A stretch of DNA of 64,000 nt. Source: Escherichia coli (GTDB taxonomy: Bacteria; Pseudomonadota; Gammaproteobacteria; Enterobacterales; Enterobacteriaceae). Below are positions 40,950 to 58,600 of the stretch, in pieces. How positions within the stretch are numbered: position 1 is the first letter of the stretch; every line of letters begins with the position of its first letter. Where the stretch lies: assembly GCF_048403405.1 (NCBI RefSeq), contig NZ_CP183129.1; one strand, 5' to 3'. A program made the position numbers and the translations under genes. The notes beneath the pieces are model-generated. The model ran no database searches and was not told the origin of the DNA. It worked only from the letters and a program-made list of their open reading frames with translations.

Positions 40950-41165
40950 TTACTCTCCCCGCGCCGCCTTACGCCGGTCCTCTTTGATTTTGAAATACAG
41001 GTTAGTCAGATATGTCAGCAGCCCAAACAGCAGACTCCCCAGCACGCCTATTGCCGCCCACTGAGACGGGGAAACCCTGTCCAGCAACTGCAGGAACCAG
41101 TAGCCCGTTCCCACCGCTGACGTGGTGTATGACACACCTGTTGTGATTTTTTCCATCTGGTACAT
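40950..41165 (-). CDS. S: pinholin (S21-type holin, dual-start MYQM)
   Basis: 71-aa ORF nearly collinear with phage 21 S ([45 protein letters not shown]); two in-frame starts. Confidence 0.85.
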
Positions 41166-41472
41166 ACCCCGTCTCCCGTTATCCGGAAGCTGACAACAAT
41201 AAAAAAGCCACCAGTTAAGTACTGATGGCTCTGATAACTCATGCAGGCGTCTCAGACGCCCCACTGACACTACCGGTGAGTTTAACGATACCTTCCATTT
41301 GACTGGCTCACTTTTTATGATGATGCCGGTGCATTTATCTCCAGCACCAGACTTTCTATCTCAACGCCATACGTTGCATTTTTGGTAATATCCGTCAGCG
41401 TCAGTGCATTTAGTCCCACTGCCAGACCGTCTTTTATGGCCTGGAATGCCGGGCCAGTACGATGACGTAGTA

Positions 41473-42270: not shown

Positions 42271-42313
42271 ATCTGACAAAATCAATATAAACAGCCCCTC
42301 CGGAGAGGGGCTG
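42271..42313 (-). terminator. intrinsic terminator (minus strand) upstream of lysis cassette
   Basis: Hairpin CAGCCCCTC-CGGA-GAGGGGCTG followed on minus strand by TTTATATTGATTTT. Confidence 0.5.
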
Positions 42314-42610
42314 GAGAGTGGCGCTATGTGCCATTGCATGGTGCCGGGTGCCTCCCGGTGAATTCAGTACCAGCACCTGAATCCGCGATTATCCCATATA
42401 CCTACTCGCTGATTGCCCCTCCGCACAGGGGGATTCACCATGCCAGTTTCTTTTAACAAACTCCCCGCAAACCAGACAACAGTCAACCGCCTGAATTGTG
42501 AAGTATTTAAAAATTTCTCCCGCTAACTGATACCCGGCTAACAGTCTGGCGTTTTCTTTTTCAGCAACGGGAAAGCAACAACCACCACACCCACCAGCCG
42601 CCCATTTACC

Positions 42611-43036: not shown

Positions 43037-43732
43037 TTAATTGACTTTTGCAATATCTCGTCGTGAAAAGGTCGCTTTTTGTTGCGCTCTTATTTTCACG
43101 GAGCAAATCAAGGATTCTCTATCGAGGCGCTTAAAAATATCGCACATCTCACGCCAGTAGTTCGCATAATTATGGCTCCAGTTATCAGGCTTAACTCCAC
43201 ACAGTCTGGCAAGCTCCTGTCTCTGGTAGACCTCACACCCGGTAACCCATCCTCTGACATCCTGTGCCGCCAGCCAGATCAACTTCTTCACACGCTCCAG
43301 CGTTTTCACTGCAATTTTTCTGGAGCCGGACTGAGTTTTAAATTCACTCCACCCCCACTGCGTTATCGCGATCTGATGCTCCCAGCAAATGTTTCCGCCA
43401 TAACACCACAACAACCACGCCTTCTGATGTTCTTCCAGTTCCAGAACAGCACGCCGCCACGATGATGTTGCAAACTCAACAGGACTGACCAGCGCAATTG
43501 ATGAGCCTTTCGCCAGTGATTGTTTACCCTGGATCGGGGGATTATCCCGCGTGATCATTTTTCCGGTTACCTCATCGCGGTAACGAATTTTTTTGCGTCT
43601 GTAACGCCCTGTATCGAACAGGGCATTTTCCTGCCAGGCTTCCAGCTGGCATTTTGTCGACCCACTGAGATCTGCAGTGGCAATCATGAGTTGCTCACGA
43701 ACAAACTGTAAATACTGGTTATTCATGCACAC
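43037..43732 (-). CDS. Q: late antiterminator Q-like protein (QuuQ/phage-82 type)
   Basis: 231-aa ORF directly upstream of candidate pR'/tR' region and downstream of rusA; Cys/His-containing; family assignment by position and recalled similarity. Confidence 0.6.
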   Translation of the reverse strand: MCMNNQYLQFVREQLMIATADLSGSTKCQLEAWQENALFDTGRYRRKKIRYRDEVTGKMITRDNPPIQGKQSLAKGSSIALVSPVEFATSSWRRAVLELEEHQKAWLLWCYGGNICWEHQIAITQWGWSEFKTQSGSRKIAVKTLERVKKLIWLAAQDVRGWVTGCEVYQRQELARLCGVKPDNWSHNYANYWREMCDIFKRLDRESLICSVKIRAQQKATFSRRDIAKVN

Positions 43733-45960: not shown

Positions 45961-46116
45961 TTACTCCTCAGGTTCGTAAGCTGTGAAGACAGCGACCTCC
46001 GTCTGGCCGGTTCGGATTCGTACCTCGCAGAGGTCTTTCCTCGTTACCAGTGCCGTCACTATGACGGTTAAACAGATGACGATCAGGGCGATTAACATCG
46101 CCTTTTGCTGCTTCAT
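45961..46116 (-). CDS. hok: Hok/Gef-family type I toxin (51 aa)
   Basis: Translation MKQQKAMLIALIVICLTVIVTALVTRKDLCEVRIRTGQTEVAVFTAYEPEE is a canonical Hok-family peptide; not in the ORF track (below size cut-off). Confidence 0.85.
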   Translation of the reverse strand: MKQQKAMLIALIVICLTVIVTALVTRKDLCEVRIRTGQTEVAVFTAYEPEE

Positions 46117-46129
46117 AGCCTGCTTCTCC

Positions 46130-46230
46130 TTGACCTTTCGGTCCGTAAGAGGCTAATCTCTATGTGTCGCATAGATATGGCCTCAGATTAATGTTAAGCG
46201 TCTTGCAGGACGCGTAATGTTAACTGGGGC
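46130..46230 (+). ncRNA. sok: expected Sok-type antisense RNA / mok leader region of hok locus (location approximate)
   Basis: By analogy with hok/sok loci the antisense RNA overlaps the hok mRNA leader; exact ends not determined. Confidence 0.3.
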
Positions 46231-46374
46231 TTTTCTCTATCTGCCTTTTGGTGTTCATGCCTGAGACAGATAGCCTCAAGCACCCGCAGTTATTCTACTT
46301 AACTAAGATTTCCCCGCAAACCGTTTTTGTCCGGCACAGTAAATATCCAACTAAACCAATGGCGTTCGCTGTAT

Positions 46375-48432: not shown

Positions 48433-48527
48433 TTTTCATTACCGCCCTTTCGGGCGGCCTCCTGATGTTCTGAGGGTGCAGAAATCCCTCCGGTTAAGGA
48501 TAAAATTTTTAACAGTGCTAAATTTAA

Positions 48528-48884
48528 TTATTCAGTTCTGGATTTTGTCGCCCTGCATATCCGCGCTTTCGCGTTACGCTCAATCTGAATTAACTTTTCT
48601 ATATTTTTCCGCCTTTCCTGTTCCTCCTGGCGCAATAGCCTTACATCATCTGCCAGTCTGGTTTCTCTTTTCGCCACAGAGAGCATCCAGTCAAACGGCT
48701 CCACAACTGCACCGCAGATTTTACAGCGGACCTGACGCTCTTTTTCGTCAACCCGAACAGAGGCGTGATGACAATATGGTCTTTCCGATGACTCATAAAG
48801 AAAATTAACCTGATTACGAGGGTCATCCTCTTTTACCGGAAATAAAACGATATTGCTTAACTCATCCTCTGGTTTTATTTCCAT
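48528..48884 (-). CDS. hypothetical zinc-ribbon protein (118 aa)
   Basis: CHH ... CKICG pattern. Confidence 0.45.
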   Translation of the reverse strand: MEIKPEDELSNIVLFPVKEDDPRNQVNFLYESSERPYCHHASVRVDEKERQVRCKICGAVVEPFDWMLSVAKRETRLADDVRLLRQEEQERRKNIEKLIQIERNAKARICRATKSRTE

Positions 48885-50824: not shown

Positions 50825-51490
50825 TCAAATAAAACCAGCTGCCTTCCGGCGTTCGTATTCCTGTTTCAGCCGTTCAATTGGCGTTGGCCCTTGCGGGTGT
50901 TTCGCCCCTTCCAGTTGTCGTCGCACTGGCGGAACACTCATCCCGTTACCAACATGCTTTGCCCATTTCGTCAGTTGCCGTTCTGCAAGTCGTTTTAACT
51001 CACCCTGCGTCATCTGGCGCTCAATCCCTCTGGTACGCATTTCGAGGCAGATGTGGTACAGCACAGGCTGAGGCCACGGATATTTGTCGCTTCCGTCATA
51101 TCGCCAGGACTCATCACGCCAGCGGCGGTACTCCTCCATCACAGCATCCACCGTCAGGCCAAATGGATTGGCCCCGCTTTCTGAAATCAGCGCCACAAAC
51201 TCAGCCAGGTCCGGAGGCCATGTTTCACCCGCCCGGCAGCGGTCCATGCACTGGCGGCAGACCTGTCGGATTTGCTGCTCAGTCATCGCGCCAATCTGTG
51301 CAATCCAGAGCTTCGAAGGTGCGGCCCCGTTCTTCTGGGTCCAGCGGTTCGAATAAACCTCCCCCATGAGTTCCCACAGCTTCCAGACCGTTTCCGTCGC
51401 TGATAAATCCGTTTTCACGTTCCCACTGCTCACGTGCTGCCCGAATTTCCTGAACTGCCCGTGATGCGGTGCCACCTGGTGCTGCTGCAT
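50825..51490 (-). CDS. P: replication protein P-like (helicase loader); start uncertain
   Basis: C-terminal two thirds similar in pattern to lambda P; track ORF overlaps O by about 210 nt so true start is probably internal (for example near 51367). Confidence 0.6.
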   Translation of the reverse strand: MQQHQVAPHHGQFRKFGQHVSSGNVKTDLSATETVWKLWELMGEVYSNRWTQKNGAAPSKLWIAQIGAMTEQQIRQVCRQCMDRCRAGETWPPDLAEFVALISESGANPFGLTVDAVMEEYRRWRDESWRYDGSDKYPWPQPVLYHICLEMRTRGIERQMTQGELKRLAERQLTKWAKHVGNGMSVPPVRRQLEGAKHPQGPTPIERLKQEYERRKAAGFI

Positions 51491-52319
51491 GGTTTACCCC
51501 CTTGCTGACTGGTTTAACCTGCGCCCTGACGTGATTTACGTGACGGGCGAATTTCTGCTCCCACTGAATCTGCGTAAACACTTTCCCCTCCGCTGCCCAG
51601 TAGTCCCGGAAGGCGGCAAGTTCAGCAGGTGTAAATTCTGTCTCCGGCAAAGCCATCCCCCACAACGCAGCCCGTCGTCGAAAATCCCGTGACGGATACC
51701 AGCTATCGGTCATCGGAAATTTTCCGATGGGTTCGCTCAGGCCATCCAGGAATACAAGGGGTGCTGCCTGTAACGACAAAACTTCCTGCTCACTGGTCGG
51801 AGCACTCTCGCGTGCGTTATGTGTGGGGTTTAGATCTTTGGGTTCCTTTGGGTTCCGTGATCCGTTTTTGGGTGTCTTTGATGGAAAATTTGGGTGTCTT
51901 TGGTTATTTTCCATGCAGCTAAGAGTTCCGTTTTTGGGTCTGTTTTGTGCTGAAACATAACCATTTTCGGTACTGTTTTTATTAACAGCACCAATTTTAC
52001 CCACCTTTAAAGACTCCCGTTTTTGGGTGTATTCAGGCTCGGCAACACTTTCTTCTACACCGATAAGTCGGTACACCACAATTTGCTTTGTTCTGCCTTT
52101 TCTCTCACCGGTATCAACAATTAACCCAATCTCCATCAGGTGTCGTAAGCTGTCCTGCACAGTCTTTTTGTTCAGTTCCGTTACTTCTGCCAGTGCAGAT
52201 ACAGACGGGTATGCACACAAATCGGCACCGCACATATCAGCAAGCCAGGTCAATACAGACTTACTGGATGAACTGCCGGTTTTCACCTTTTTAGCCCATC
52301 GTAGTGCATCGATACTCAT
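51279..52319 (-). CDS. O: replication initiator O-like (N-terminal HTH initiator domain, DnaT-like C-terminus)
   Basis: Start set at MSIDALRWAKK...; iteron repeats embedded in mid-gene. Confidence 0.65.
   Translation of the reverse strand: MSIDALRWAKKVKTGSSSSKSVLTWLADMCGADLCAYPSVSALAEVTELNKKTVQDSLRHLMEIGLIVDTGERKGRTKQIVVYRLIGVEESVAEPEYTQKRESLKVGKIGAVNKNSTENGYVSAQNRPKNGTLSCMENNQRHPNFPSKTPKNGSRNPKEPKDLNPTHNARESAPTSEQEVLSLQAAPLVFLDGLSEPIGKFPMTDSWYPSRDFRRRAALWGMALPETEFTPAELAAFRDYWAAEGKVFTQIQWEQKFARHVNHVRAQVKPVSKGVNHAAAPGGTASRAVQEIRAAREQWERENGFISDGNGLEAVGTHGGGLFEPLDPEERGRTFEALDCTDWRDD
51840..52035. repeat. replication origin iterons inside O gene
   Basis: At least three copies of TCCGTTTTTGGGT(G/C)T plus TTTGGGTTCC repeats and adjacent AT-rich stretch. 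Confidence 0.5.
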
Positions 52320-52842
52320 ACAAACCCCTGGCAGACATTTGTTTATCTGCAAAGTAATATTGATATTGCTGACGATACGCATGCTTGAAAGCAATAGCTT
52401 TTTCTATAAGCTCGTCAGTCTCACGTTCCACAACAGCTGGATCCGCAAAAAGCAGCCCGGACTCCACCACATCGCCATATTCTTTGTTTAATCCGGCGAT
52501 CATGTACGTAATGCTTTTTCCATCACTGATCTCACGATACAACCTGAAATCACTAATTCGGATAGCCTCCATAATTGCCGGAATCAGCGCCGTGAATTTT
52601 TTCCGCTTATCCCTGGTGTCGATAGCTTTCCAGCGTTCGAATATCTTCACCCGGTTAACGCCCAGCGCCCGTTGATCAACCTCGCCATCATTAAACGTGA
52701 CGCGTTGAACATCGATGTTCGGGCGTTCTTTCAGAGCCCAGAATGCTTCCGTGATTAATATCGTCGCTTGCTCCTGTGTCATTCCTGGTCGACATACCCA
52801 GGCATCCAGAGCCTCACAAACCTGTTCAGGGGTGATTTTCAT
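52291..52842 (-). CDS. hypothetical protein (183 aa) in cII position
   Basis: ORF translationally coupled to cro-like gene, upstream of O. Confidence 0.4.
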   Translation of the reverse strand: MKITPEQVCEALDAWVCRPGMTQEQATILITEAFWALKERPNIDVQRVTFNDGEVDQRALGVNRVKIFERWKAIDTRDKRKKFTALIPAIMEAIRISDFRLYREISDGKSITYMIAGLNKEYGDVVESGLLFADPAVVERETDELIEKAIAFKHAYRQQYQYYFADKQMSARGLYEYRCTTMG

Positions 52843-53053
52843 TGTTCAACCGCCCCGCCCGCTTTGCCTTACGATATTCGTCATAAACTTTGGGGTCGTA
52901 CTGAAGTTCCCCGCCGGATGCCTCCTGTAGACGCATCGCGCGACCTTCAGGAACCAGTTTCCCCCATGCAGCAACGCTTGCCAGCCTAACTCCTGCGGCA
53001 TTGGCAAGCTTTGTTTTGCTGCCAAAAAACGCTATAGCATCAATTTTCAACAT
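52826..53053 (-). CDS. dicC: Cro-like regulator (DicC-like)
   Basis: 75-aa ORF divergent from repressor; sequence (FGSKTKLAxAAG.RLAS ... LVPEGRAMRLQEASGGELQYDPKVYDEY) matches recalled DicC. Confidence 0.7.
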   Translation of the reverse strand: MLKIDAIAFFGSKTKLANAAGVRLASVAAWGKLVPEGRAMRLQEASGGELQYDPKVYDEYRKAKRAGRLNNENHP

Positions 53054-53129: not shown

Positions 53130-53537
53130 ATGAAAAACGAAACCTTCGGTGCTCGCCTCTTATACAGGCGTAAAAAATTAAAACTGTCTCAGGCCGCATT
53201 AGGTAAGCTGGTCAAAGTGGCTCACGTAACAATTTCTCAATGGGAAAGAGATGAAACACAGCCAGCGGGGAAGAGATTATTCGCACTGAGCCAGGCGCTT
53301 CAGTGCTCGCCGACTTGGCTTCTTTTTGGAGATGAAGATAAGCAACCAGGCGAACCGATCCCAGATAATCAGCCAGTTAATCTGACAGAAGATCAAAAAG
53401 AGTTGCTTCAACTGTTCGACGCACTGCCTGAGTCAGAGCAAAAGGCTCTGTTGTCAGAGATGCGTGCTCGAGTTGAGAATTTCAACAAACTTTTTGAAGA
53501 ACTACTCAAAGCTCGCAAAAGAAGCGCAAATAAATAA
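53130..53537 (+). CDS. dicA: prophage repressor (DicA-like, HTH-XRE, no S24 peptidase domain)
   Basis: 135-aa ORF; HTH (LSQAALGKLVKVAHVTISQWE); C-terminal SPTWLLFGDEDKQP ... LPESEQ ... EMRARVENFNKLFEELLKAR matches recalled DicA. Confidence 0.8.
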   Translation: MKNETFGARLLYRRKKLKLSQAALGKLVKVAHVTISQWERDETQPAGKRLFALSQALQCSPTWLLFGDEDKQPGEPIPDNQPVNLTEDQKELLQLFDALPESEQKALLSEMRARVENFNKLFEELLKARKRSANK

Positions 53538-53660: not shown

Positions 53661-53743
53661 CTAAATTCTACTCATCAAGACACCGCACGGTGTTCTCAGC
53701 AAACAGTTCCGCTACCCTGGCGTTAAGGGGAAATGAGGTCAGC

Positions 53744-53896
53744 ATGGATACTATCGATCTTGGCAACAACGAATCTCTGGTATGCGGCGTGTTTCCCAAC
53801 CAGGACGGCACGTTTACCGCGATGACGTATACCAGAAGCAAAACGTTTCAAACTGAAGCTGGCGCGCGTCGCTGGTTAACCAGAAACACTGACTGA
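53744..53896 (+). CDS. small protein, YdfA-like (50 aa)
   Basis: MDTIDLGNNESLVCGVFPNQDGTFTAM... with GAGG RBS; first gene after repressor as in the Qin dicB operon. Confidence 0.5.
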   Translation: MDTIDLGNNESLVCGVFPNQDGTFTAMTYTRSKTFQTEAGARRWLTRNTD

Positions 53897-53907
53897 TGAG
53901 GTTGACG

Positions 53908-54282
53908 ATGGAATTTAAAGATTTACCAGTACCATTCCAGGAAATGGCATCGAATGTGGTTCGCTCTCAACTGGCGACTCTTGACCTGAGTACCGTAGAA
54001 AAAGAAACCATCGATACTATATCCGGTAACGTGCGTCGTGCCTTTATCGGTCTGTACGAAGAGAAGCAGCTCTCTGATAACCAGGATTTACATGAAAAAT
54101 ACTTCCTGGAATTAATGGACATCATTAATAAAGGATTTGGCTTGTTAATGAAAAAGAAAGGGATTCGAATAGCTCCCCTTGAAAATCATTTTACAGCGAG
54201 CAGTATTAATTCCTGTGATTTAAAGCATCACACATCCGATGGGAAAGTTGAATCAAACAACAAAATATCAATTAATCATTAA
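53908..54282 (+). CDS. hypothetical protein (124 aa), AT-rich
   Basis: ORF with GAGG RBS before MEFKDL; no family recognised. Confidence 0.45.
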   Translation: MEFKDLPVPFQEMASNVVRSQLATLDLSTVEKETIDTISGNVRRAFIGLYEEKQLSDNQDLHEKYFLELMDIINKGFGLLMKKKGIRIAPLENHFTASSINSCDLKHHTSDGKVESNNKISINH

Positions 54283-54584
54283 TTTATTCACAGGTGAGGT
54301 AGAGTGCGTGCGCCGGACACGGATAAGAATCCGGCACTGACAGTTTACTAAAAAGGATATATCCCTGAAAAGTCAGGGCATAACACGAAAGCGCCCGGCG
54401 AAGTTAGTCTCTCTGTATAGGTCGTCGTTAAATTTAATTCGATCGTGCGCTTCCGGTTGTGGCAATCCGCGAAATGGCGCGGCGGTAAGTATGGCTGGGG
54501 TTTCCTCCATTGCTCCAGAAAATGCACCGGGTTGTCAGGTTGACCATACGCTTAAGTGACAGCCCCGCCACAATACCCATGTGT

Positions 54585-54637
54585 AGTCTTTGGTGGCATC
54601 AGTTCTACTCCGTGACTGCTCTGCCACCCTTTTTAAA
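54585..54637 (+). ncRNA. dicF: DicF-like small RNA (3' stem-loop/terminator region conserved)
   Basis: TTTGGTGGCATCAGTTCTACTCCGTGACTGCTCTGCCACCCTTTTT closely matches recalled DicF 3' portion, with compensatory stem changes GGCGG/CCGCC to GGTGG/CCACC. Confidence 0.55.
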
Positions 54638-54812
54638 GTGAATTTTGTGATGCGGTGAATGCGGCTAAGCGCACGCGGAACAGTTAAAACCAAAAACAGT
54701 GTTATGGGTGGATTCTCTGTATCCGGCGTTAATTGTTAACTGGTTAACGTCACCTGGAGGCACCAGGCACCGCATCAACAAAGTTCACTTCGGTGATGAA
54801 AGGTAAGAGAAA

Positions 54813-55667
54813 ATGTTGAATGTAGCTATTGAAAACCAGAACGGGTGGAATTATAGTGCACCTGCACCTCATAAAACGGGTGCCGGGCGTGGAAACCCGG
54901 AATTCAATCAAGCGCATAACCGCGCTCAGGCGGTTTTTTTATGCGTCAAGCACAGCCACATTCAGATTATGGTGGGGCGTGCAGGGCAGCTGCAAGGCTG
55001 GCCGGATTCTTGGTTGACCGGTATTTCCACCCCTGTACGCCTCACCACCCTTATGGTCGTGGAAAACCTTGGTGGTGAGTTATTAATACTCAACCAAGAG
55101 GCTGCCATTATGGCTACTATCCCTACCCTTTCTCACCCTGACGTAACCATCGAAAATGGTCGCGCTGTCACTACGTCTGTTGCGGTTGCAGAGTTCTTCC
55201 GCAAAATGCACAAGGACGTTCTGCGCAAAATTGAAACGCTAGAATGCTCTGAAGATTTTAACGAGCGCAATTTTACGCCCGTTACCTACACCGACGCCAA
55301 AGGCGAAAAACGCCCCATGTACCAAATCACCAAAAACGGCTTCGTTTTCCTGGTGATGGGGTTCACAGGTAAAAAAGCCGCAACTTTCAAAGAAGCCTAC
55401 ATCGCTGAGTTCGATCGCATGGAGGAAGAACTGCGCCAGAATAACGCCCCGTCTCCCGACAAAATGATTCACGGGGACGGACGCACCCTGGTTATCCGTC
55501 TCGACGAACACGGCAATATCAAATTCACTGAAACCGTTCCTGACGGCGCAATGGTCTGCACCCTGGATACCTTCCGGTTTTATCTGGAGAAACAAGGATG
55601 GACTCTTGTAAACCGGAGCGCAATTAAAAATATGACTGTGGAGCAATTGCTAAAAATTCATTGTTGA
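54813..55667 (+). CDS. Rha-family phage regulatory protein (possible antirepressor); start uncertain
   Basis: C-terminal 185 aa carry Rha-like motifs (AVAEFF.K.H..VLR.I ... MGFTGKKA..FKEAYI.EFDRMEEEL); alternative start at 55110. Confidence 0.65.
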   Translation: MLNVAIENQNGWNYSAPAPHKTGAGRGNPEFNQAHNRAQAVFLCVKHSHIQIMVGRAGQLQGWPDSWLTGISTPVRLTTLMVVENLGGELLILNQEAAIMATIPTLSHPDVTIENGRAVTTSVAVAEFFRKMHKDVLRKIETLECSEDFNERNFTPVTYTDAKGEKRPMYQITKNGFVFLVMGFTGKKAATFKEAYIAEFDRMEEELRQNNAPSPDKMIHGDGRTLVIRLDEHGNIKFTETVPDGAMVCTLDTFRFYLEKQGWTLVNRSAIKNMTVEQLLKIHC

Positions 55668-55677
55668 GGACGCGATA

Positions 55678-55866
55678 ATGGAAACGTCACTACCAAACGT
55701 TAATACGTCTGACGGGTGCTTTAATATTGGTGTTCTGCTCAGTAACAGGGATTTCACCGAGGATGCAATCAATATGAGAAAATATGAACCCTACCTGCTG
55801 AATGACAATTCCATACTCTCCAGAATTGCCCTTCTTAAACTCGGTATTTTCGGAGAGTGGCGATGA
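55678..55866 (+). CDS. dicB: DicB-like cell division inhibitor (62 aa)
   Basis: LPNVNTSDGCFNIGV..SN..FTEDAINMRK matches recalled DicB; follows DicF-like RNA. Confidence 0.7.
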   Translation: METSLPNVNTSDGCFNIGVLLSNRDFTEDAINMRKYEPYLLNDNSILSRIALLKLGIFGEWR

Positions 55867-56066
55867 ACACATTATTCGTACTCATTCTGACTGTACATCT
55901 CAATACTGGTGAGTCGCTTGATGCAATCACCGGCATGTACAACTCAATGAAAGAATGCATGGCTGCCGCAGCGGAACAGAAAATTCCCGGCAACTGTTAT
56001 CCGGTCGATAAAGTTATTCACATGGACAATAACGAAATCCCGGCGGGGCTTAAAACAGCACCGTAA
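55863..56066 (+). CDS. small protein, YdfD-like by position
   Basis: ORF overlapping dicB-like stop; hydrophobic N-terminus. Confidence 0.45.
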   Translation: MNTLFVLILTVHLNTGESLDAITGMYNSMKECMAAAAEQKIPGNCYPVDKVIHMDNNEIPAGLKTAP

Positions 56067-56143
56067 TTAATATCCGGTTTCATTTTTATATGCCAGCAAT
56101 GGCAGGGATTTGTTCACCCTTAAATCTGTAATGAGGTTTATCA

Positions 56144-58600
56144 ATGAGCACTGATAAAGAAGAAATTGCACTATATTACGAAGCCAAAAATGACAAAATC
56201 AGAAAACGTCTTGGAATTAAAGGCGGTTTTTACTGGCGCACAGCAAAAAAATTATCGGTTGCAATATCACGCGGTGTTGTCGCAATGGACGATGCCGGAT
56301 TTGACAAAGAGGATTTTAAAAAACCTGTTCGCGTCCATTTACCCGTTGTGAATGACCTTCCTCCGGAAGGCGTGTTTGATACCGAATTCTGCAACCGATA
56401 CGAAAAGGGCGGTGAAGATGGTATCACAATGGTACTTATCGCGCCCTCGCCCTCTGTTCAGGATAAACCAGCCAGCACTGACAATACCAACGTCAACGGC
56501 GAAGACATGGCTGAGATTGAGGAGAACATGCTCCTGCCGGTTTCAGGTCAGATTCTGCCTGTTCGATGGCTGGCACAGCACGGCAGCGAAAAACCGATCA
56601 CACACGTTTCGCGGGACGAACTGCGCACATTACATAACGCACAGGATGAAAAACTTCCCGCCGTTACCGCGCTGGCCATCTCAAATAAAGCAGCGCAACT
56701 CGAACCGCTGGAAATTCGCGATCTCCACAAACTGGTTCGTGACACGGACAAAGTTTTCCCTAATCCTGGTAATTCAGACCTGGGACTGATGACTGCTTTT
56801 TTCGAAGCATACCTGGGCGCTGACTACACCGATCGCGGTCTGCTGACAAAAGAGTGGATGAAAGGAAATCGTGTTTCACGCATCACCCGCACGGCTTCCG
56901 GTGCTAATGCCGGTGGAGGGAACAAAACCGATCGCAATCCGAATTTAGTACACACCTTCGATACGCTGGATGTGGAGATTGCAGCGGCCACACTTCCGAT
57001 GGATTTTAATATTTATGAAATTCCGGGCAGCGTTTATCGTCGCGCAAAAGAAGTCGTCCGGAAGAAAGAAAGTCCGTTCAAAGAATGGTCCGCAGCACTT
57101 CGCGCAATCCCGGGTATCCTGGATTATTCCCGCGCCGCTATTTTTGCACTTATCCGAAGCGCACACCCTGAATTTTATCACTACCCGGGACGCCTTCAGG
57201 GGTATATCAACGCCTATTTGACGGAAACTGATCACGAGAACCCTACCGAGGAAACTCTCGCTGCTGCACGACATACACCGGAAAAAGATATCCTGGAAGA
57301 AGTTAACCGCGAACTGGCTGCTGAACGCGAAACAGAAGAAGAAAAAAATAATGAGGAAAAATCACAACCGTCTGACGCAATGGCAGATGAACAGGCAACG
57401 ACTGAAGCAATGGAGCCGAATACAACTGAACATCGCCAGGACACGCAATCGCTGGATACTCAGGCACAGATAGATCCGGTTAATCAGGTAAAAGTTACCG
57501 CTGACGAAGTAAACAAAATTATGCAGGCAGCCAATATCAGCCAGCCTGACGCCGATAAGTTGCTTGCGGCCTCTCGCGGAGAATTTGTTGCAGGGATTAG
57601 CGACCCGAATGATCCGAAATGGGTCAAGGGGATGGAAACCCGCGATTCTGTGAACCAGAACCAGCAAGAAACGGAACAGAACGGCCAGAAAGCGGAACAA
57701 AACAGCCCAAATGCGTTACAAAACGAGCCAGAAACGAAACAACCTGAACCAGTAGTGCAACAGGAACCGGAAAAGATCTGCACCGCCTGCGGTCAGACCG
57801 GCGGCGGCAACTGCCCTGATTGTGGCGCGGTGATGGGCGACGCAACATACCAGGAAACATTCAATGAAGAGAATCAGGTTGAAGTTCAGGAAAATGATCC
57901 GGAGGAAATGGAAGGCACTGAACATCCACACAAGGAGAACCCTGGCGGCAATCAGCATCACGATAGCGATAGTGAAACTGGCGAGGCGACAGATCACTCA
58001 GTTAAGGTGAACGGTCATCATAAAGGCACATCCACCAGCGGGACGTGTGACCATCTAATGATCGACCTTGAAACCATGGGAAAAAATCCAGATGCCCCGA
58101 TTATCTCAATAGGTGCAATATTTTTCGATCCGCAAACCGGAGATATGGGACCGGAATTTAGTAAGACTATCGATCTGGAAACTGCTGGCGGAGTCATTGA
58201 TCGGGACACCATTAAATGGTGGCTTAAGCAATCACGCGAAGCGCAATCTGCCATTATGACCGATGAAATCCCGTTAGATGATGCACTGTTACAATTGCGG
58301 GAATTTATCGACGAAAACTCCGGCGAATTTTTTGTTCAGGTCTGGGGAAATGGAGCCAACTTCGACAACACGATTTTGCGCCGTTCATACGAACGGCAGG
58401 GGATCCCCTGCCCGTGGCGTTACTACAACGATCGCGATGTACGCACAATCGTTGAGCTGGGGAAAGCCATAGACTTCGATGCCAGAACGGCTATTCCATT
58501 CGAAGGTGAGCGCCATAATGCACTTGATGACGCCCGTTACCAGGCAAAATACGTTTCAGTTATCTGGCAAAAACTGATCCCGAGTCAGGCTGATTTTTAA
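56144..58600 (+). CDS. large RecE-like prophage protein with C-terminal DEDDh 3'-5' exonuclease domain and central zinc ribbon
   Basis: 818 aa; C-terminal Exo I (LMIDLETMG), Exo II (GNGANFD), Exo III (H-x4-D: ERHNALDDARY) motifs; central CTACG ... CPDCG; acidic linker. Confidence 0.55.
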   Translation: MSTDKEEIALYYEAKNDKIRKRLGIKGGFYWRTAKKLSVAISRGVVAMDDAGFDKEDFKKPVRVHLPVVNDLPPEGVFDTEFCNRYEKGGEDGITMVLIAPSPSVQDKPASTDNTNVNGEDMAEIEENMLLPVSGQILPVRWLAQHGSEKPITHVSRDELRTLHNAQDEKLPAVTALAISNKAAQLEPLEIRDLHKLVRDTDKVFPNPGNSDLGLMTAFFEAYLGADYTDRGLLTKEWMKGNRVSRITRTASGANAGGGNKTDRNPNLVHTFDTLDVEIAAATLPMDFNIYEIPGSVYRRAKEVVRKKESPFKEWSAALRAIPGILDYSRAAIFALIRSAHPEFYHYPGRLQGYINAYLTETDHENPTEETLAAARHTPEKDILEEVNRELAAERETEEEKNNEEKSQPSDAMADEQATTEAMEPNTTEHRQDTQSLDTQAQIDPVNQVKVTADEVNKIMQAANISQPDADKLLAASRGEFVAGISDPNDPKWVKGMETRDSVNQNQQETEQNGQKAEQNSPNALQNEPETKQPEPVVQQEPEKICTACGQTGGGNCPDCGAVMGDATYQETFNEENQVEVQENDPEEMEGTEHPHKENPGGNQHHDSDSETGEATDHSVKVNGHHKGTSTSGTCDHLMIDLETMGKNPDAPIISIGAIFFDPQTGDMGPEFSKTIDLETAGGVIDRDTIKWWLKQSREAQSAIMTDEIPLDDALLQLREFIDENSGEFFVQVWGNGANFDNTILRRSYERQGIPCPWRYYNDRDVRTIVELGKAIDFDARTAIPFEGERHNALDDARYQAKYVSVIWQKLIPSQADF

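What the first reader, a model, noticed from the sequence alone, without database searches (positions are those of the whole stretch)
54640..55667. Rha-family regulator inserted between DicF and dicB, preceded by a double GTTAAC palindrome
A Rha-like gene interrupts the otherwise Qin-like dicF-dicB arrangement. Its upstream region contains TTAATTGTTAACTGGTTAACG, a candidate operator. The repressor here is DicA-like with no LexA-type autocleavage domain, so induction may depend on an antirepressor; a Rha-family protein is a plausible candidate. The start is ambiguous (54813 or 55110).
Basis: partly seen in the sequence, partly recalled or inferred. Interest (0 to 1): 0.4.

Follow-up and report, generated by a model that had tools for sequence, protein, structure and literature searches.

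The report
RNA-gated antirepressor cassette beside dicB

Summary
A Rha-family ORF lies between DicF (54578-54629) and dicB (55678-55866), downstream of GTTAAC-N2-GTTAAC (54735-54748), in an E. coli prophage with a DicA-type repressor that has no S24 domain.

The palindrome lies in a stretch that is base-for-base identical in K-12 Qin, which has no rha. It forms one hairpin of a structured STnc100-like RNA, not an operator of rha.

The extra 865 bp is a self-contained cassette:
- a sigma-70 promoter (54829-54857);
- IsrK sRNA (54864-54940);
- C4 antisense RNA (54965-55052);
- rha from ATG 55110.

The C4 loop sequences pair with the rha Shine-Dalgarno region and with decoy copies in IsrK. Three-way compensatory changes in 14 related loci support this pairing. 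The layout matches P1 immI (c4-icd-ant) and Gifsy-1 isrK-orf45-anrP, both of which control antirepressors.

The Rha C-terminal domain matches the family of AnrP, which induces Gifsy-1, so the antirepressor idea gains support but remains untested. RefSeq's 284-aa CDS from 54813 runs over the promoter and both RNA genes.

Verdict: a new member of a known kind, of moderate interest.

The parts
54578..54629 (+). DicF sRNA, followed by a T-run. It belongs to the Qin-like backbone, not to the cassette.
   Evidence: Rfam RF00039 scores 61.1 bits against a gathering score of 48. It aligns to K-12 dicF.
54641..54782 (+). Structured STnc100-like RNA element in the dicF 3' flank. The 'double GTTAAC palindrome' (54729-54749) is one of its hairpins (CGUUAAU/GUUAACG).
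   Evidence: - Rfam RF02076 scores 38 bits, below its gathering score of 47.
- The minimum free energy is -64.6 kcal/mol, z = -5.5.
- The 21-mer and its flanks are identical in K-12 Qin.
- The full STnc100 copy at 42283-42472(-) has UUCAG/CUGAA at the same hairpin.
54829..54857 (+). Predicted cassette promoter (PisrK): TTGAAA, 17 bp spacer, TATAGT, with the start site near 54864.
   Evidence: - It is the best sigma-70 match in 54300-55800, 10 of 12 positions.
- It sits just upstream of the Rfam isrK 5' end.
- P1 P1c4 has the same -10 hexamer, TATAGT.
- Gifsy-1 has TTGACA-17-TATATT at the equivalent place.
54864..54940 (+). IsrK-like sRNA. It carries decoy sites a1 (54890-54895, UGGAAA) and b1 (54904-54912, UCAAUCAAG) and an intrinsic terminator (stem 54918-54935 plus a T-run).
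   Evidence: - Rfam RF01394 scores 69.2 bits against 50.
- The terminator is found.
- a1:a' and b1:b' covary: 97% of cells paired, 14 of 16 pairs compensatory.
54965..55052 (+). C4-type antisense RNA, with b' (55009-55017, CUUGGUUGA) in the loop of hairpin 2 and a' (55024-55029, UUUCCA) single-stranded.
   Evidence: - Rfam RF01695 scores 78 bits against 45.
- The fold matches the family consensus.
- Covariation is shown.
54969..55109 (+). Leader reading frame that starts at the AUG equivalent to the Gifsy-1 orf45 start. Here it is in frame with rha, 47 codons with no stop. It may be translated or may give an N-extended Rha.
   Evidence: - The alignment to Gifsy-1 is.
- The frame analysis of 10 Rha-type cassettes is.
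- orf45 translation is shown experimentally in Gifsy-1 (PMC4825925).
55060..55101 (+). C4 target region in the rha mRNA: a2 (55060-55065, UGGAAA), b2 (55090-55098, UCAACCAAG) and the Shine-Dalgarno AAGAGG (55096-55101).
   Evidence: - b':b2 pairing is 87.8%, with 8 of 9 pairs compensatory.
- The distance from the end of b2 to the ATG is 11 nt, the same as P1 b2 to icd.
55110..55667 (+). rha cargo gene, 185 aa: an N-terminal Rha domain (aa 10-111) and a C-terminal domain of the AnrP family (about aa 100-172). It is a probable antirepressor.
   Evidence: - Pfam PF09669 scores 2e-31 and TIGR02681 matches.
- phrog_2379 matches aa 100-172 at 3.3e-9.
- Substitutions are biased to the third codon position only from this ATG onward.
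- The ATG is conserved in all 11 aligned loci.
54813..55109 (+). 5' extension of the RefSeq/PGAP 284-aa CDS, also the Pfam Phage_ASH hit. It overlaps the promoter, IsrK and C4 and is probably not a protein domain.
   Evidence: - PGAP annotation.
- Phage_ASH covers aa 14-109.
- The substitution pattern across codon positions is flat.
- The promoter and terminator lie inside it.
55678..55866 (+). dicB (cell-division inhibitor), 10 nt after the rha stop codon. It is therefore also downstream of the cassette promoter.
   Evidence: Pfam DicB scores 1.3e-32. No terminator is predicted between rha and dicB.
53130..53537 (+). DicA-family repressor, the proposed target of Rha.
   Evidence: - NCBIfam NF007257 scores 241.6 bits.
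- It is 63% identical to K-12 DicA.
- It is 30% identical to the Gifsy-1 repressor, E = 1e-11.

Best explanation
The roughly 865 bp that distinguish this prophage from Qin are a self-contained, RNA-gated antirepressor cassette. It is of the P1 immI and Gifsy-1 isrK type.

Proposed mechanism, all inferred from sequence and from the two studied systems:
1. Its own sigma-70 promoter (54829-54857) starts a transcript at about 54864.
2. Most transcripts stop at the IsrK terminator and give the short IsrK sRNA.
3. Read-through transcripts contain the C4-type RNA and the rha mRNA.
4. The two exposed C4 sequences, a' and b', pair with a2 and b2. The b2 site abuts and overlaps the Shine-Dalgarno sequence of ATG 55110, so rha translation is blocked. 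By polarity, transcription into dicB is probably blocked as well.
5. IsrK carries mimics of the targets (a1, b1). When IsrK is abundant it titrates or refolds the C4 element and opens the ribosome-binding site.
6. The 185-aa product has a Rha N-terminal domain and an AnrP-family C-terminal domain. It then most likely binds and inactivates the non-cleavable DicA-type repressor. That would derepress the prophage early operons and induce the prophage or the dicB operon without RecA-mediated cleavage.

What is shown here:
- the RNA genes;
- promoter and terminator matches;
- the complementarities and their three-way covariation;
- the conserved start codon;
- the domain homologies.

What is inferred:
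- expression of the RNAs;
- the direction of regulation;
- antirepressor activity;
- DicA as the target.

The GTTAAC palindrome is not part of this cassette. It is a hairpin of the STnc100-like RNA structure downstream of dicF.
For: - Rfam places isrK (69.2 bits, gathering 50) and C4 (78 bits, gathering 45) in tandem between the palindrome and rha. The same tandem lies upstream of anrP in Gifsy-1, in 10 other phages, and in P1 as c4-a1b1 plus C4.
- The promoter TTGAAA-17-TATAGT and the IsrK terminator are both found.
- In the 11-sequence alignment A2, a1:a' and b1:b' are 97.1% paired. Fourteen of 16 pairs show changes on both sides. The covariation score is 0.926 against 0.225 in shuffles (0 of 500 reach it), and slid controls give 28-51% pairing.
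- b':b2 is 87.8% paired, with 8 of 9 pairs compensatory and a score of 0.832 against 0.224.
- Three more dicF-linked variants have near-identical flanks but different, mutually matching a and b sites.
- The Gifsy-1 pairs G28-C162 and G31-C159, proven by compensatory mutation (PMC4825925), fall exactly on my a1:a' columns.
- b2 abuts the GAGG and a conserved ATG in all loci. The spacing is the same as P1 b2 to icd.
- Third-codon-position bias begins only at ATG 55110: 29/28/60 substitutions in the Rha domain against 15/16/18 in the leader.
- Rha aa 100-172 match the AnrP family phrog_2379 at 3.3e-9 and AnrP itself by BLASTP at E = 0.003.
- AnrP expression induces Gifsy-1.
- The window repressor is homologous to the Gifsy-1 repressor.
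- All loci examined that carry this Rha C-terminal domain and were long enough to include the repressor gene (the window, L016, L017, L018) encode a short DicA-like repressor.
Against: - No expression or protein-interaction data exist for this locus.
- No member of the Rha family was found with demonstrated antirepressor activity.
- The C-terminal domain has no informative match to a solved structure.
- The similarity to AnrP is weak (23% identity) and was not reciprocal in PHROGs.
- Rha-type cargo with a different C-terminal domain sits behind the same leader in phages whose CI does carry an S24 domain. The cassette is therefore not specific to non-cleavable repressors.
- In Gifsy-1, a1 mutations in cis raise expression, and the authors explain activation by alternative cis structures and an upstream ORF rather than by C4 titration. 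The exact logic is unsettled.
- The cargo reading frame stays open upstream in all Rha-type cassettes, so longer isoforms cannot be excluded.
Confidence: 0.6

Rival explanations
1. The RNA-gated cassette is as described, but Rha is a DNA-binding transcription regulator that acts on promoters directly. It would not be an antirepressor that sequesters the DicA-like repressor.
For: - Pfam, NCBIfam and the best PHROG hits label the family 'regulatory protein' or 'transcriptional regulator'.
- The literature search found no experiment showing antirepressor activity for a Rha protein.
Against: - The same leader gates the proven antirepressor Ant of P1 and the prophage-inducing AnrP of Gifsy-1.
- The C-terminal domain matches the AnrP family.
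- AnrP itself has a comparable N-terminal module, ORF6N. An N-terminal domain of this kind does not therefore exclude antirepressor function.
Confidence: 0.25
2. The real product is the 284-aa protein annotated by RefSeq (an Ash domain plus a Rha domain) starting at 54813, or a 232-aa form starting at 54969. On this reading the isrK and C4 matches are secondary to a coding sequence.
For: - The cargo frame is open for 303 nt upstream in the window and for 264-660 nt in the 9 other Rha-type cassettes. Indels occur only in multiples of three.
- Pfam Phage_ASH scores 52.6 bits against a gathering score of 26.
- ATG 54813 has an AAGAG/AAGG motif upstream.
- Gifsy-1 orf45 is translated from the AUG equivalent to 54969.
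- P1 makes two in-frame Ant isoforms.
Against: - The predicted promoter and a strong intrinsic terminator lie inside the extension.
- Substitutions in the leader show no third-position bias, whereas the Rha domain does.
- Window and Gifsy-1 share the nucleotide sequence but in different frames. PMC4825925, as summarised, also notes that the nucleotide sequence of orf45 is conserved but its amino-acid sequence is not.
- Variation concentrates in the a and b sites and is RNA-compensatory.
- Gifsy-1 has stop codons in the cargo frame at -30, -33 and -93.
- Gene callers disagree, giving 283/284, 231 and 185 aa.
Confidence: 0.15
3. One reading: the double GTTAAC palindrome is a protein operator that controls rha, possibly bound by the prophage repressor or another regulator.
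For: - The exact GTTAAC-N2-GTTAAC occurs once in 64 kb and is far beyond chance.
- It lies upstream of rha.
Against: - It is identical in K-12 Qin, where no rha exists.
- It lies 116-129 nt upstream of the cassette start site and outside the 865-bp cassette.
- It forms a hairpin inside a fold with z = -5.5 that matches the STnc100 consensus.
- The STnc100 copy at 42 kb keeps the hairpin but not the sequence.
- No similar site occurs in the dicA-dicC region.
Confidence: 0.05
4. The main role of the cassette is not induction. It would serve either as immI-type superinfection immunity, with C4 acting in trans to silence the antirepressor of incoming related phages, or as an internal RNA-gated promoter for dicB and the downstream early-left genes.
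For: - The a and b sites are hypervariable between otherwise near-identical cassettes. This is the pattern expected for heteroimmunity specificities, as between P1 and P7 (review PMC12197685).
- dicB starts 10 nt after rha with no terminator between them.
- Cell-division inhibitors accompany C4-gated antirepressor genes in P1 (icd) and in a Salmonella houtenae locus (kilR).
Against: - These roles are compatible with Rha being an antirepressor rather than alternatives to it.
- None of them was tested.
Confidence: 0.2

Closest known systems
Phage P1/P7 immI operon (P1c4 promoter, a1/b1, c4 RNA, a2/b2, icd, ant1/ant2)
   Same: - The order of elements and the spacings match: a promoter with -10 TATAGT, upstream a1/b1, a C4 RNA above the Rfam threshold, and a2/b2 with b2 ending 11 nt before the first start codon.
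- The specificity loops covary with their targets.
- The regulated gene is annotated as, or suspected to be, an antirepressor.
- A cell-division inhibitor sits in the same transcription unit.
   Different: - There is no separate icd ORF. rha itself occupies the icd position, and the division inhibitor (dicB) follows rather than precedes.
- The cargo is Rha-type, not P1 Ant.
- No C1-type operator overlaps the promoter.
- The leader ends in a strong terminator that scores as IsrK (69 bits here against 35 bits in P1).
- The host element is a lambdoid, integrated, Qin/Rac-like prophage.
Gifsy-1 isrK-orf45-anrP locus (Hershko-Shalev et al. 2016, PMC4825925)
   Same: - Both have IsrK and a C4-type RNA (STnc1160) in tandem, above Rfam thresholds.
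- The experimentally verified IsrK-orf45 base pairs coincide with a1:a'.
- The cargo C-terminal domain is of the same family.
- The prophage repressors are homologous and lack S24.
   Different: - The cargo N-terminal domain is ORF6N in AnrP and Rha here.
- orf45 ends in an ATGA overlap with anrP in Gifsy-1 but is fused in frame to rha here.
- The Gifsy-1 locus lies downstream of Q and is followed by isrJ. This one lies in the early-left operon between dicF and dicB.
Satellite phage P4 immunity region (seqA, CI RNA, seqC)
   Same: An antisense RNA processed from the leader pairs with repeats upstream and downstream of itself. PMC4825925 calls the P4 SeqA RNA a structural homolog of IsrK and compares STnc1160 to the P4 CI RNA.
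   Different: - P4 CI causes premature transcription termination of replication genes rather than blocking an antirepressor's ribosome-binding site.
- This comparison was not examined at sequence level here.
E. coli K-12 Qin dicB operon (dicA, ydfABC, dicF, dicB, ydfD)
   Same: - The backbone genes and their order match, with 84% DNA identity through dicF and its 3' spacer, including the palindrome.
- DicA is 63% identical.
   Different: - Qin lacks the 865-bp IsrK-C4-rha cassette.
- The Qin-type junction is found in 4203 of 5426 complete E. coli genomes and the cassette junction in 399.
LexA-controlled antirepressors of non-cleavable repressors (Gifsy GfoA/GftA, Fels-2 and 186 Tum, N15 AntC)
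   Different: - No LexA box lies near this gene.
- Control here is post-transcriptional, through RNAs.

Membership tests
C4 antisense RNA / P1 immI-type module | A C4 RNA with the family's secondary structure | tested here: met
   Rfam RF01695 scores 78 bits against a gathering score of 45 over the full model 1-87. The MFE fold reproduces the consensus.
C4 antisense RNA / P1 immI-type module | Exposed a' and b' sequences complementary to a2 and b2 downstream, with b2 at the ribosome-binding site of the first downstream ORF | tested here: met
   - b' (55009-17) pairs with b2 (55090-98), which overlaps AAGAGG.
- a' (55024-29) pairs with a2 (55060-65).
- Across 11 loci, 8 of 9 b':b2 pairs are compensatory.
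C4 antisense RNA / P1 immI-type module | Second copies of the targets (a1, b1) upstream of C4 in the same transcript | tested here: met
   - a1 is at 54890-95 and b1 at 54904-12.
- 97.1% of cells are paired and 14 of 16 pairs are compensatory.
- The Rfam c4-a1b1 hit is weak here (25.5 bits against 46.7) but passes in Gifsy-1 and P1.
C4 antisense RNA / P1 immI-type module | Its own constitutive promoter, giving co-transcription of the regulator and its target | tested here: inconclusive
   A strong sigma-70 match lies at 54829-54857. Transcription itself cannot be shown with these tools.
C4 antisense RNA / P1 immI-type module | C4 matured from the precursor by RNase P | not testable with these tools
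   This is known for P1 from my own knowledge (Hartmann et al. 1995). Here I can only note the CCACC(C) 3' end.
C4 antisense RNA / P1 immI-type module | An icd-type leader ORF translationally coupled to ant | tested here: not met
   There is no separate ORF between b2 and rha. The b2-adjacent ATG is the rha start itself.
C4 antisense RNA / P1 immI-type module | The downstream gene product inactivates the primary repressor | not testable with these tools
   Only domain homology to the AnrP family and genomic context are available.
IsrK sRNA / Gifsy-1 isrK-orf45-anrP locus | An IsrK RNA with three hairpins, the last being an intrinsic terminator | tested here: met
   Rfam RF01394 scores 69.2 bits against 50. 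The terminator is at 54918-54935 plus a T-run.
IsrK sRNA / Gifsy-1 isrK-orf45-anrP locus | orf45 starts at the AUG in the C4 5' stem and stops in an overlap with the cargo start (translational coupling) | tested here: not met
   The AUG is conserved at 54969. The frame, however, runs without a stop into rha: the distance is 141 nt, a multiple of three.
IsrK sRNA / Gifsy-1 isrK-orf45-anrP locus | AnrP-type cargo (ORF6N N-terminal domain plus the phrog_2379 C-terminal domain) | tested here: inconclusive
   The N-terminal domain differs: Rha here and ORF6N in AnrP. The C-terminal domain matches phrog_2379 at 3.3e-9 and AnrP by BLASTP at 23% identity, E = 0.003.
IsrK sRNA / Gifsy-1 isrK-orf45-anrP locus | Location downstream of the late antiterminator Q, followed by isrJ | tested here: not met
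   Here the cassette lies in the early-left operon between dicF and dicB. Q is at 43037-43732. No isrJ hit was found.
Rha family (PF09669 / TIGR02681) | A Rha domain above the curated cut-offs | tested here: met
   PF09669 scores 108.7 bits against 29.9. TIGR02681 scores 109.7 bits against 45.95.
Pfam Phage_ASH (PF10554) as a protein domain | The matched stretch evolves as protein-coding sequence | tested here: not met
   - The HMM hit passes (52.6 bits against 26), but substitutions are flat across codon positions: 15/16/18, 24/25/21 and 28/30/21.
- The hit spans the -10 element, IsrK, C4 and the ribosome-binding site.
- The Gifsy-1 and P1 leader ORFs do not hit the family.
Qin-type dicB operon | DicA repressor, YdfA, DicF, DicB and YdfD in this order | tested here: met
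   - The family hits are NF007257, DUF1391, RF00039, PF05358 and DUF1482.
SOS (LexA)-controlled antirepressor | A LexA box at the promoter | tested here: not met
   No CTGT-N8-ACAG with up to one mismatch occurs between 51989 and 64000.

The most novel reading that the evidence does not exclude
Rha may be the natural, SOS-independent inducer of DicA-repressed operons. In intact Qin-like prophages, IsrK and C4 would decide when Rha is made. Rha would then inactivate DicA and switch on dicF, dicB and the phage early genes. The cassette promoter would also give dicB a DicA-independent, RNA-gated route of expression, echoing icd-ant in P1. On this reading K-12 Qin lacks this cassette, which would explain why no physiological signal for dicBF induction is known. 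Expressing this 185-aa protein in K-12 should derepress dicBF, since the two DicA proteins are 63% identical.
Probability: 0.3. Interest if true: 0.6.

Novelty: new member of a known kind. Interest (0 to 1): 0.4.

Why it matters
- It corrects an annotation repeated across hundreds of E. coli genomes. A 284-aa 'Rha' CDS, and probably the Pfam Ash 'domain', cover a promoter and two sRNA genes that are not annotated.
- It shows that the P1 c4 system and the Salmonella IsrK system are one module type. The module is spread across lambdoid, P2-like and P1 phages, carries interchangeable cargo, and has hypervariable three-way matched specificity sites.
- It gives a concrete, testable candidate for how DicA-type prophages, which cannot be cleaved by the SOS pathway, are induced.
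- By extension, it gives a route to asking what could switch on the dicF/dicB cell-division inhibitors. To my knowledge their natural inducing signal in K-12 is still unknown.

Tried and rejected
- LexA control: no box lies near the cassette.
- Palindrome as operator: rejected because the sequence is identical in rha-less K-12 and because of the RNA-structure evidence.
- Phage-database search for the Rha C-terminal domain by tblastn: no match. The protein search found it only in Escherichia, Shigella and Salmonella, mostly as fragments.
- Solved-structure search by sequence: nothing.
- Foldseek of the AF2 model (pLDDT 79.9) against the PDB: nothing at E <= 0.001.
- RNAduplex energies against shuffles were only weakly discriminating (z = -3.0 for C4 with the translation-initiation region, -1.7 for C4 with IsrK). 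I rely on covariation instead.
- I tested whether Pfam Phage_ASH also hits the P1 or Gifsy-1 leader ORFs, which would have proved it to be a translated-RNA artefact. It does not, so that claim stays 'probable'.
- A literature search for dicF + dicB + Rha found no paper. Searches for experimental Rha antirepressor activity found none. The phi24B Ant paper concerns a P22-type Ant and is not relevant.
- Whether the cassette was inserted here or deleted in Qin could not be polarised. The junctions carry an imperfect repeat, consistent with either.
Full report
**Context**

The window is an E. coli lambdoid prophage. The 54560-55700 stretch is 100% identical to many complete chromosomes, and 393 of 5426 genomes hold at least 80% of it. 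The plus-strand layout around the finding is as follows.

| Feature | Coordinates |
|---|---|
| Cro/DicC-like gene | 52826-53053 (-) |
| DicA-family repressor | 53130-53537 |
| YdfA-like gene | 53690-53896 |
| 128-aa ORF | 53896-54282 |
| DicF | 54578-54629 |
| Rha ORF | ends at 55667 |
| dicB | 55678-55866 |
| DUF1482 | 55857-56066 |
| RecE-like exonuclease | 56144-58600 |
| excisionase and integrase | downstream, next to potC |

**Checking the observation**

The Rha domain (Pfam 1e-31), DicF (Rfam 61 bits) and DicB (Pfam 1e-32) are all confirmed. The 21-mer TTAATTGTTAACTGGTTAACG lies at 54729-54749, and GTTAAC-N2-GTTAAC is unique in the window. The repressor is DicA-family (NCBIfam 241.6 bits), 63% identical to K-12 DicA, and has no S24 domain. 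BLAST against K-12 Qin shows that window 54289-54787 and 55653-56138 align to contiguous Qin sequence. About 865 bp (54788-55652) is therefore extra here.

**The palindrome**

The palindrome lies in the part shared with Qin. The sequence from dicF through the palindrome and the hairpin after it is virtually identical in K-12, which has no rha. It therefore belongs to the dicF 3' flank and not to the rha insert.

The 54630-54800 stretch folds to -64.6 kcal/mol, with z = -5.5 against shuffles. It also matches the Rfam STnc100 model at 38 bits, below the gathering score of 47. In that model the two GTTAAC copies are the stem and loop of one hairpin (CGUUAAU/GUUAACG).

A full STnc100 copy (132 bits) lies elsewhere in the window at 42283-42472(-), between Q and the holin gene. 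At the equivalent hairpin it reads UUCAG/CUGAA, and the neighbouring hairpin also shows a compensatory change, CCUGG/CCAGG against CCGGG/CCCGG. Structure is conserved and sequence is not. This points to an RNA element rather than a protein operator. The palindrome also sits 116-129 nt upstream of the cassette start site.

There is also a weak c4-a1b1 hit at 54851-54903. The best sigma-70 match in the region, TTGAAA-17-TATAGT at 54829-54857, sits just upstream of the isrK 5' end. An intrinsic terminator at 54918-54935 plus a T-run closes IsrK.

RefSeq/PGAP annotates 54813-55667 as a single 284-aa 'Rha family' CDS and annotates no ncRNA here. That CDS starts upstream of the promoter and runs across both RNA genes.

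**Relatives**

- Gifsy-1 has the same isrK-C4 tandem directly upstream of anrP.
- Ten other phages have both RNAs above threshold with the same spacing: Stx2a_1447, ST64B, mEp460, Lys8385Vzw, Stx2_131990, Stx2c_PV98-693, Stx1_14040, phiP27, cdtI and the P2-like Shae_phiSM.
- P1 immI has the curated series P1c4 promoter (-10 TATAGT), a1, b1, c4, a2, b2, icd, ant1/ant2. Rfam scores it as c4-a1b1 plus C4, with a sub-threshold isrK hit.

The window matches P1 element for element. The end of b2 lies 11 nt before the first start codon in both.

**RNA-RNA pairing**

The window sites are:
- a1, UGGAAA, 54890-95, in an IsrK hairpin loop;
- b1, UCAAUCAAG, 54904-12;
- b', CUUGGUUGA, 55009-17, in the loop of C4 hairpin 2;
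- a', UUUCCA, 55024-29;
- a2, UGGAAA, 55060-65;
- b2, UCAACCAAG, 55090-98, overlapping the Shine-Dalgarno AAGAGG, with the ATG at 55110.

In an 11-sequence alignment the sites differ greatly between phages but always match within a phage.

| Pairing | Cells paired | Pairs with changes on both sides | Covariation score | Shuffled mean score |
|---|---|---|---|---|
| a1:a' plus b1:b' | 97.1% | 14 of 16 | 0.926 | 0.225 |
| b':b2 | 87.8% | 8 of 9 | 0.832 | 0.224 |

In both tests none of 500 shuffles reached the observed covariation score. For a1:a' plus b1:b', controls with the partner slid by one to three columns gave only 28-51% pairing. For b':b2, most of the unpaired cells come from the one locus that is out of register in the alignment.

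Three further dicF-linked variants (L016-L018) have almost identical flanks but new, mutually matching a and b sites. The a and b types also reassort between loci. The Gifsy-1 base pairs proven by compensatory mutagenesis (G28-C162, G31-C159) fall exactly on my a1:a' columns.

**Start codon**

Evidence for ATG 55110 as the regulated start:
- The ATG and the preceding GAGG are conserved in all loci, and b2 abuts them.
- Substitutions between the window and its relatives are biased to the third codon position in the Rha domain: 29/28/60, 14/13/38 and 26/17/52. In the leader they are flat: 15/16/18, 24/25/21 and 28/30/21. By my arithmetic the chi-square p is about 2e-4 for the domain and about 0.87 for the leader in the window-Stx2a_1447 pair.
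- Window and Gifsy-1 share leader nucleotides but in different reading frames.
- ATG 54813 lies in the junction, upstream of the promoter.

Evidence that keeps the question open:
- The AUG at 54969 corresponds to the experimentally used orf45 start of Gifsy-1.
- In all ten Rha-type cassettes that AUG is in frame with the cargo ATG with no stop, and the frame stays open for 264-660 nt upstream.
- Gene callers give versions of 283/284, 231 and 185 aa.

ATG 55110 is therefore the conserved, C4-targeted start. N-extended isoforms, like P1 Ant1/Ant2, cannot be excluded.

The Pfam Phage_ASH hit (aa 14-109 of the long ORF, nt 54852-55139) coincides with the -10 element, IsrK, C4 and the ribosome-binding site. 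It is probably a translated shadow of the RNA module. I could not prove this, because the P1 and Gifsy-1 leader ORFs do not hit the family.

**The protein**

The 185-aa product has a Rha domain at aa 10-111. Its C-terminal part is found only in Escherichia, Shigella and Salmonella.

PHROGs matches aa 100-172 to phrog_2379, the AnrP family, at 3.3e-9. BLASTP to AnrP gives 23% identity over the C-terminal part, E = 0.003. The N-terminal domain of AnrP is ORF6N rather than Rha. The two proteins thus appear to share an effector domain behind different N-terminal modules.

AnrP expression induces Gifsy-1 and its antQ operon. The Gifsy-1 repressor is homologous to the window's repressor (30% identity, E = 1e-11), including the C-terminal LPExE region.

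Among the dicF-linked variants, one (L016) has an identical Rha but a repressor only 26% identical. That repressor has a different HTH domain and a conserved C-terminal region. Cassettes in phages with S24-type CI carry a different cargo C-terminal domain. This pattern fits a C-terminal domain that recognises the repressor, but the sample is small and not phylogenetically independent.

**Mechanism proposed**

1. The cassette promoter makes IsrK, plus read-through C4-rha RNA.
2. C4 a' and b' occlude the rha ribosome-binding site, as in P1.
3. IsrK, which carries target mimics, relieves this block, as shown in trans for Gifsy-1 with 100-fold or greater activation that depends on a1.
4. Rha then inactivates the DicA-type repressor.

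Steps 1-3 rest on sequence, covariation and the two studied systems. Step 4 is inference.

Because dicB starts 10 nt after rha with no terminator between them, relief of translational repression may also let transcription reach dicB. Cell-division inhibitors also accompany C4-gated antirepressor genes in P1 (icd) and in a Salmonella houtenae locus (kilR). No LexA box lies near the cassette.

**Distribution and novelty**

The Qin-type dicF-dicB junction without the cassette occurs in 4203 of 5426 complete E. coli genomes, and the cassette junction in 399. The cassette is flanked by an imperfect repeat: AAAGTTCACTTCGGTGA at 54779-95 and AAAATTCATTGTTGA at 55653-67. K-12 keeps one copy, which equals the last four rha codons plus the stop. 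Insertion here and deletion in Qin are both possible.

No paper in the searchable library links dicF, dicB and Rha. The module type itself is well known from P1/P7, P4 and Gifsy-1. This is a new member of a known kind, with a different cargo architecture, a different position and a fused leader ORF. Its main value lies in correcting the annotation and in offering a testable candidate inducer for DicA-repressed operons.

Noticed in passing
window 42283-42472 (-): A full-length STnc100 element (Rfam 132 bits) lies between the Q antiterminator gene (43037-43732) and the holin gene (40950-41270), in a position like a late-operon leader. The dicF-dicB spacer at 54641-54782 is a diverged copy of the same structure.
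   Followed up: partly
window 54813-55667; L001 (NZ_CP086334) 6254-7108: RefSeq/PGAP annotates one 284-aa Rha CDS and no DicF, IsrK or C4 ncRNA here. The Pfam Phage_ASH 'domain' (nt 54852-55139) coincides with the -10 element, IsrK, C4 and the ribosome-binding site. It may be a family built on translated RNA genes.
   Followed up: partly
L016, L017, L018 (about 2740-3320) compared with window 54560-55125: dicF-linked cassettes in other E. coli strains are nearly identical in the promoter, stems and flanks. They differ sharply at the a and b sites, always with matching changes at all three copies. This looks like diversifying selection on RNA specificity. L017 has the same repressor as the window but a different a/b type.
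   Followed up: partly
window 54779-54795 and 55653-55667; L002 (K-12) about 3085-3100: The cassette is bounded by an imperfect direct repeat. K-12 Qin keeps a single copy identical to the last four rha codons plus the stop codon. Qin may be a deletion derivative, or the cassette may have been inserted with a duplication.
   Followed up: partly
window 51973-51988: A perfect-core, AT-rich LexA-box-like sequence, CTGTTTTTATTAACAG, lies inside the O/DnaT-like replication gene (51279-52319, minus strand). It is the only such site in the early region.
   Followed up: no
L004-L007, locus positions about 2144-2500: In the PR-operon versions of the cassette, the first 357 nt of the annotated 381-385 aa CDS has most of its substitutions at codon position 2 (10/27/17). 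The annotated frame there is therefore doubtful.
   Followed up: no
window 55678-55866; L014 (P1) 48470-48691; L015 705-911: Cell-division inhibitors sit next to C4-gated or Rha-type regulator genes in three unrelated settings: dicB here, icd in P1, and kilR in a Salmonella houtenae prophage.
   Followed up: no
window 55072-55080: An invariant GGTGGTGAG downstream of C4 repeats the 5' strand of the C4 closing stem. It could form an alternative helix with the C4 3' strand, possibly the alternative structures A and B reported for Gifsy-1.
   Followed up: no
window 46114-46285 (-) and 13061-13259 (-): Rfam finds a sok antitoxin RNA (106.7 bits), indicating a hok/sok module in the nin region, and an IS009 element (225 bits).
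   Followed up: no
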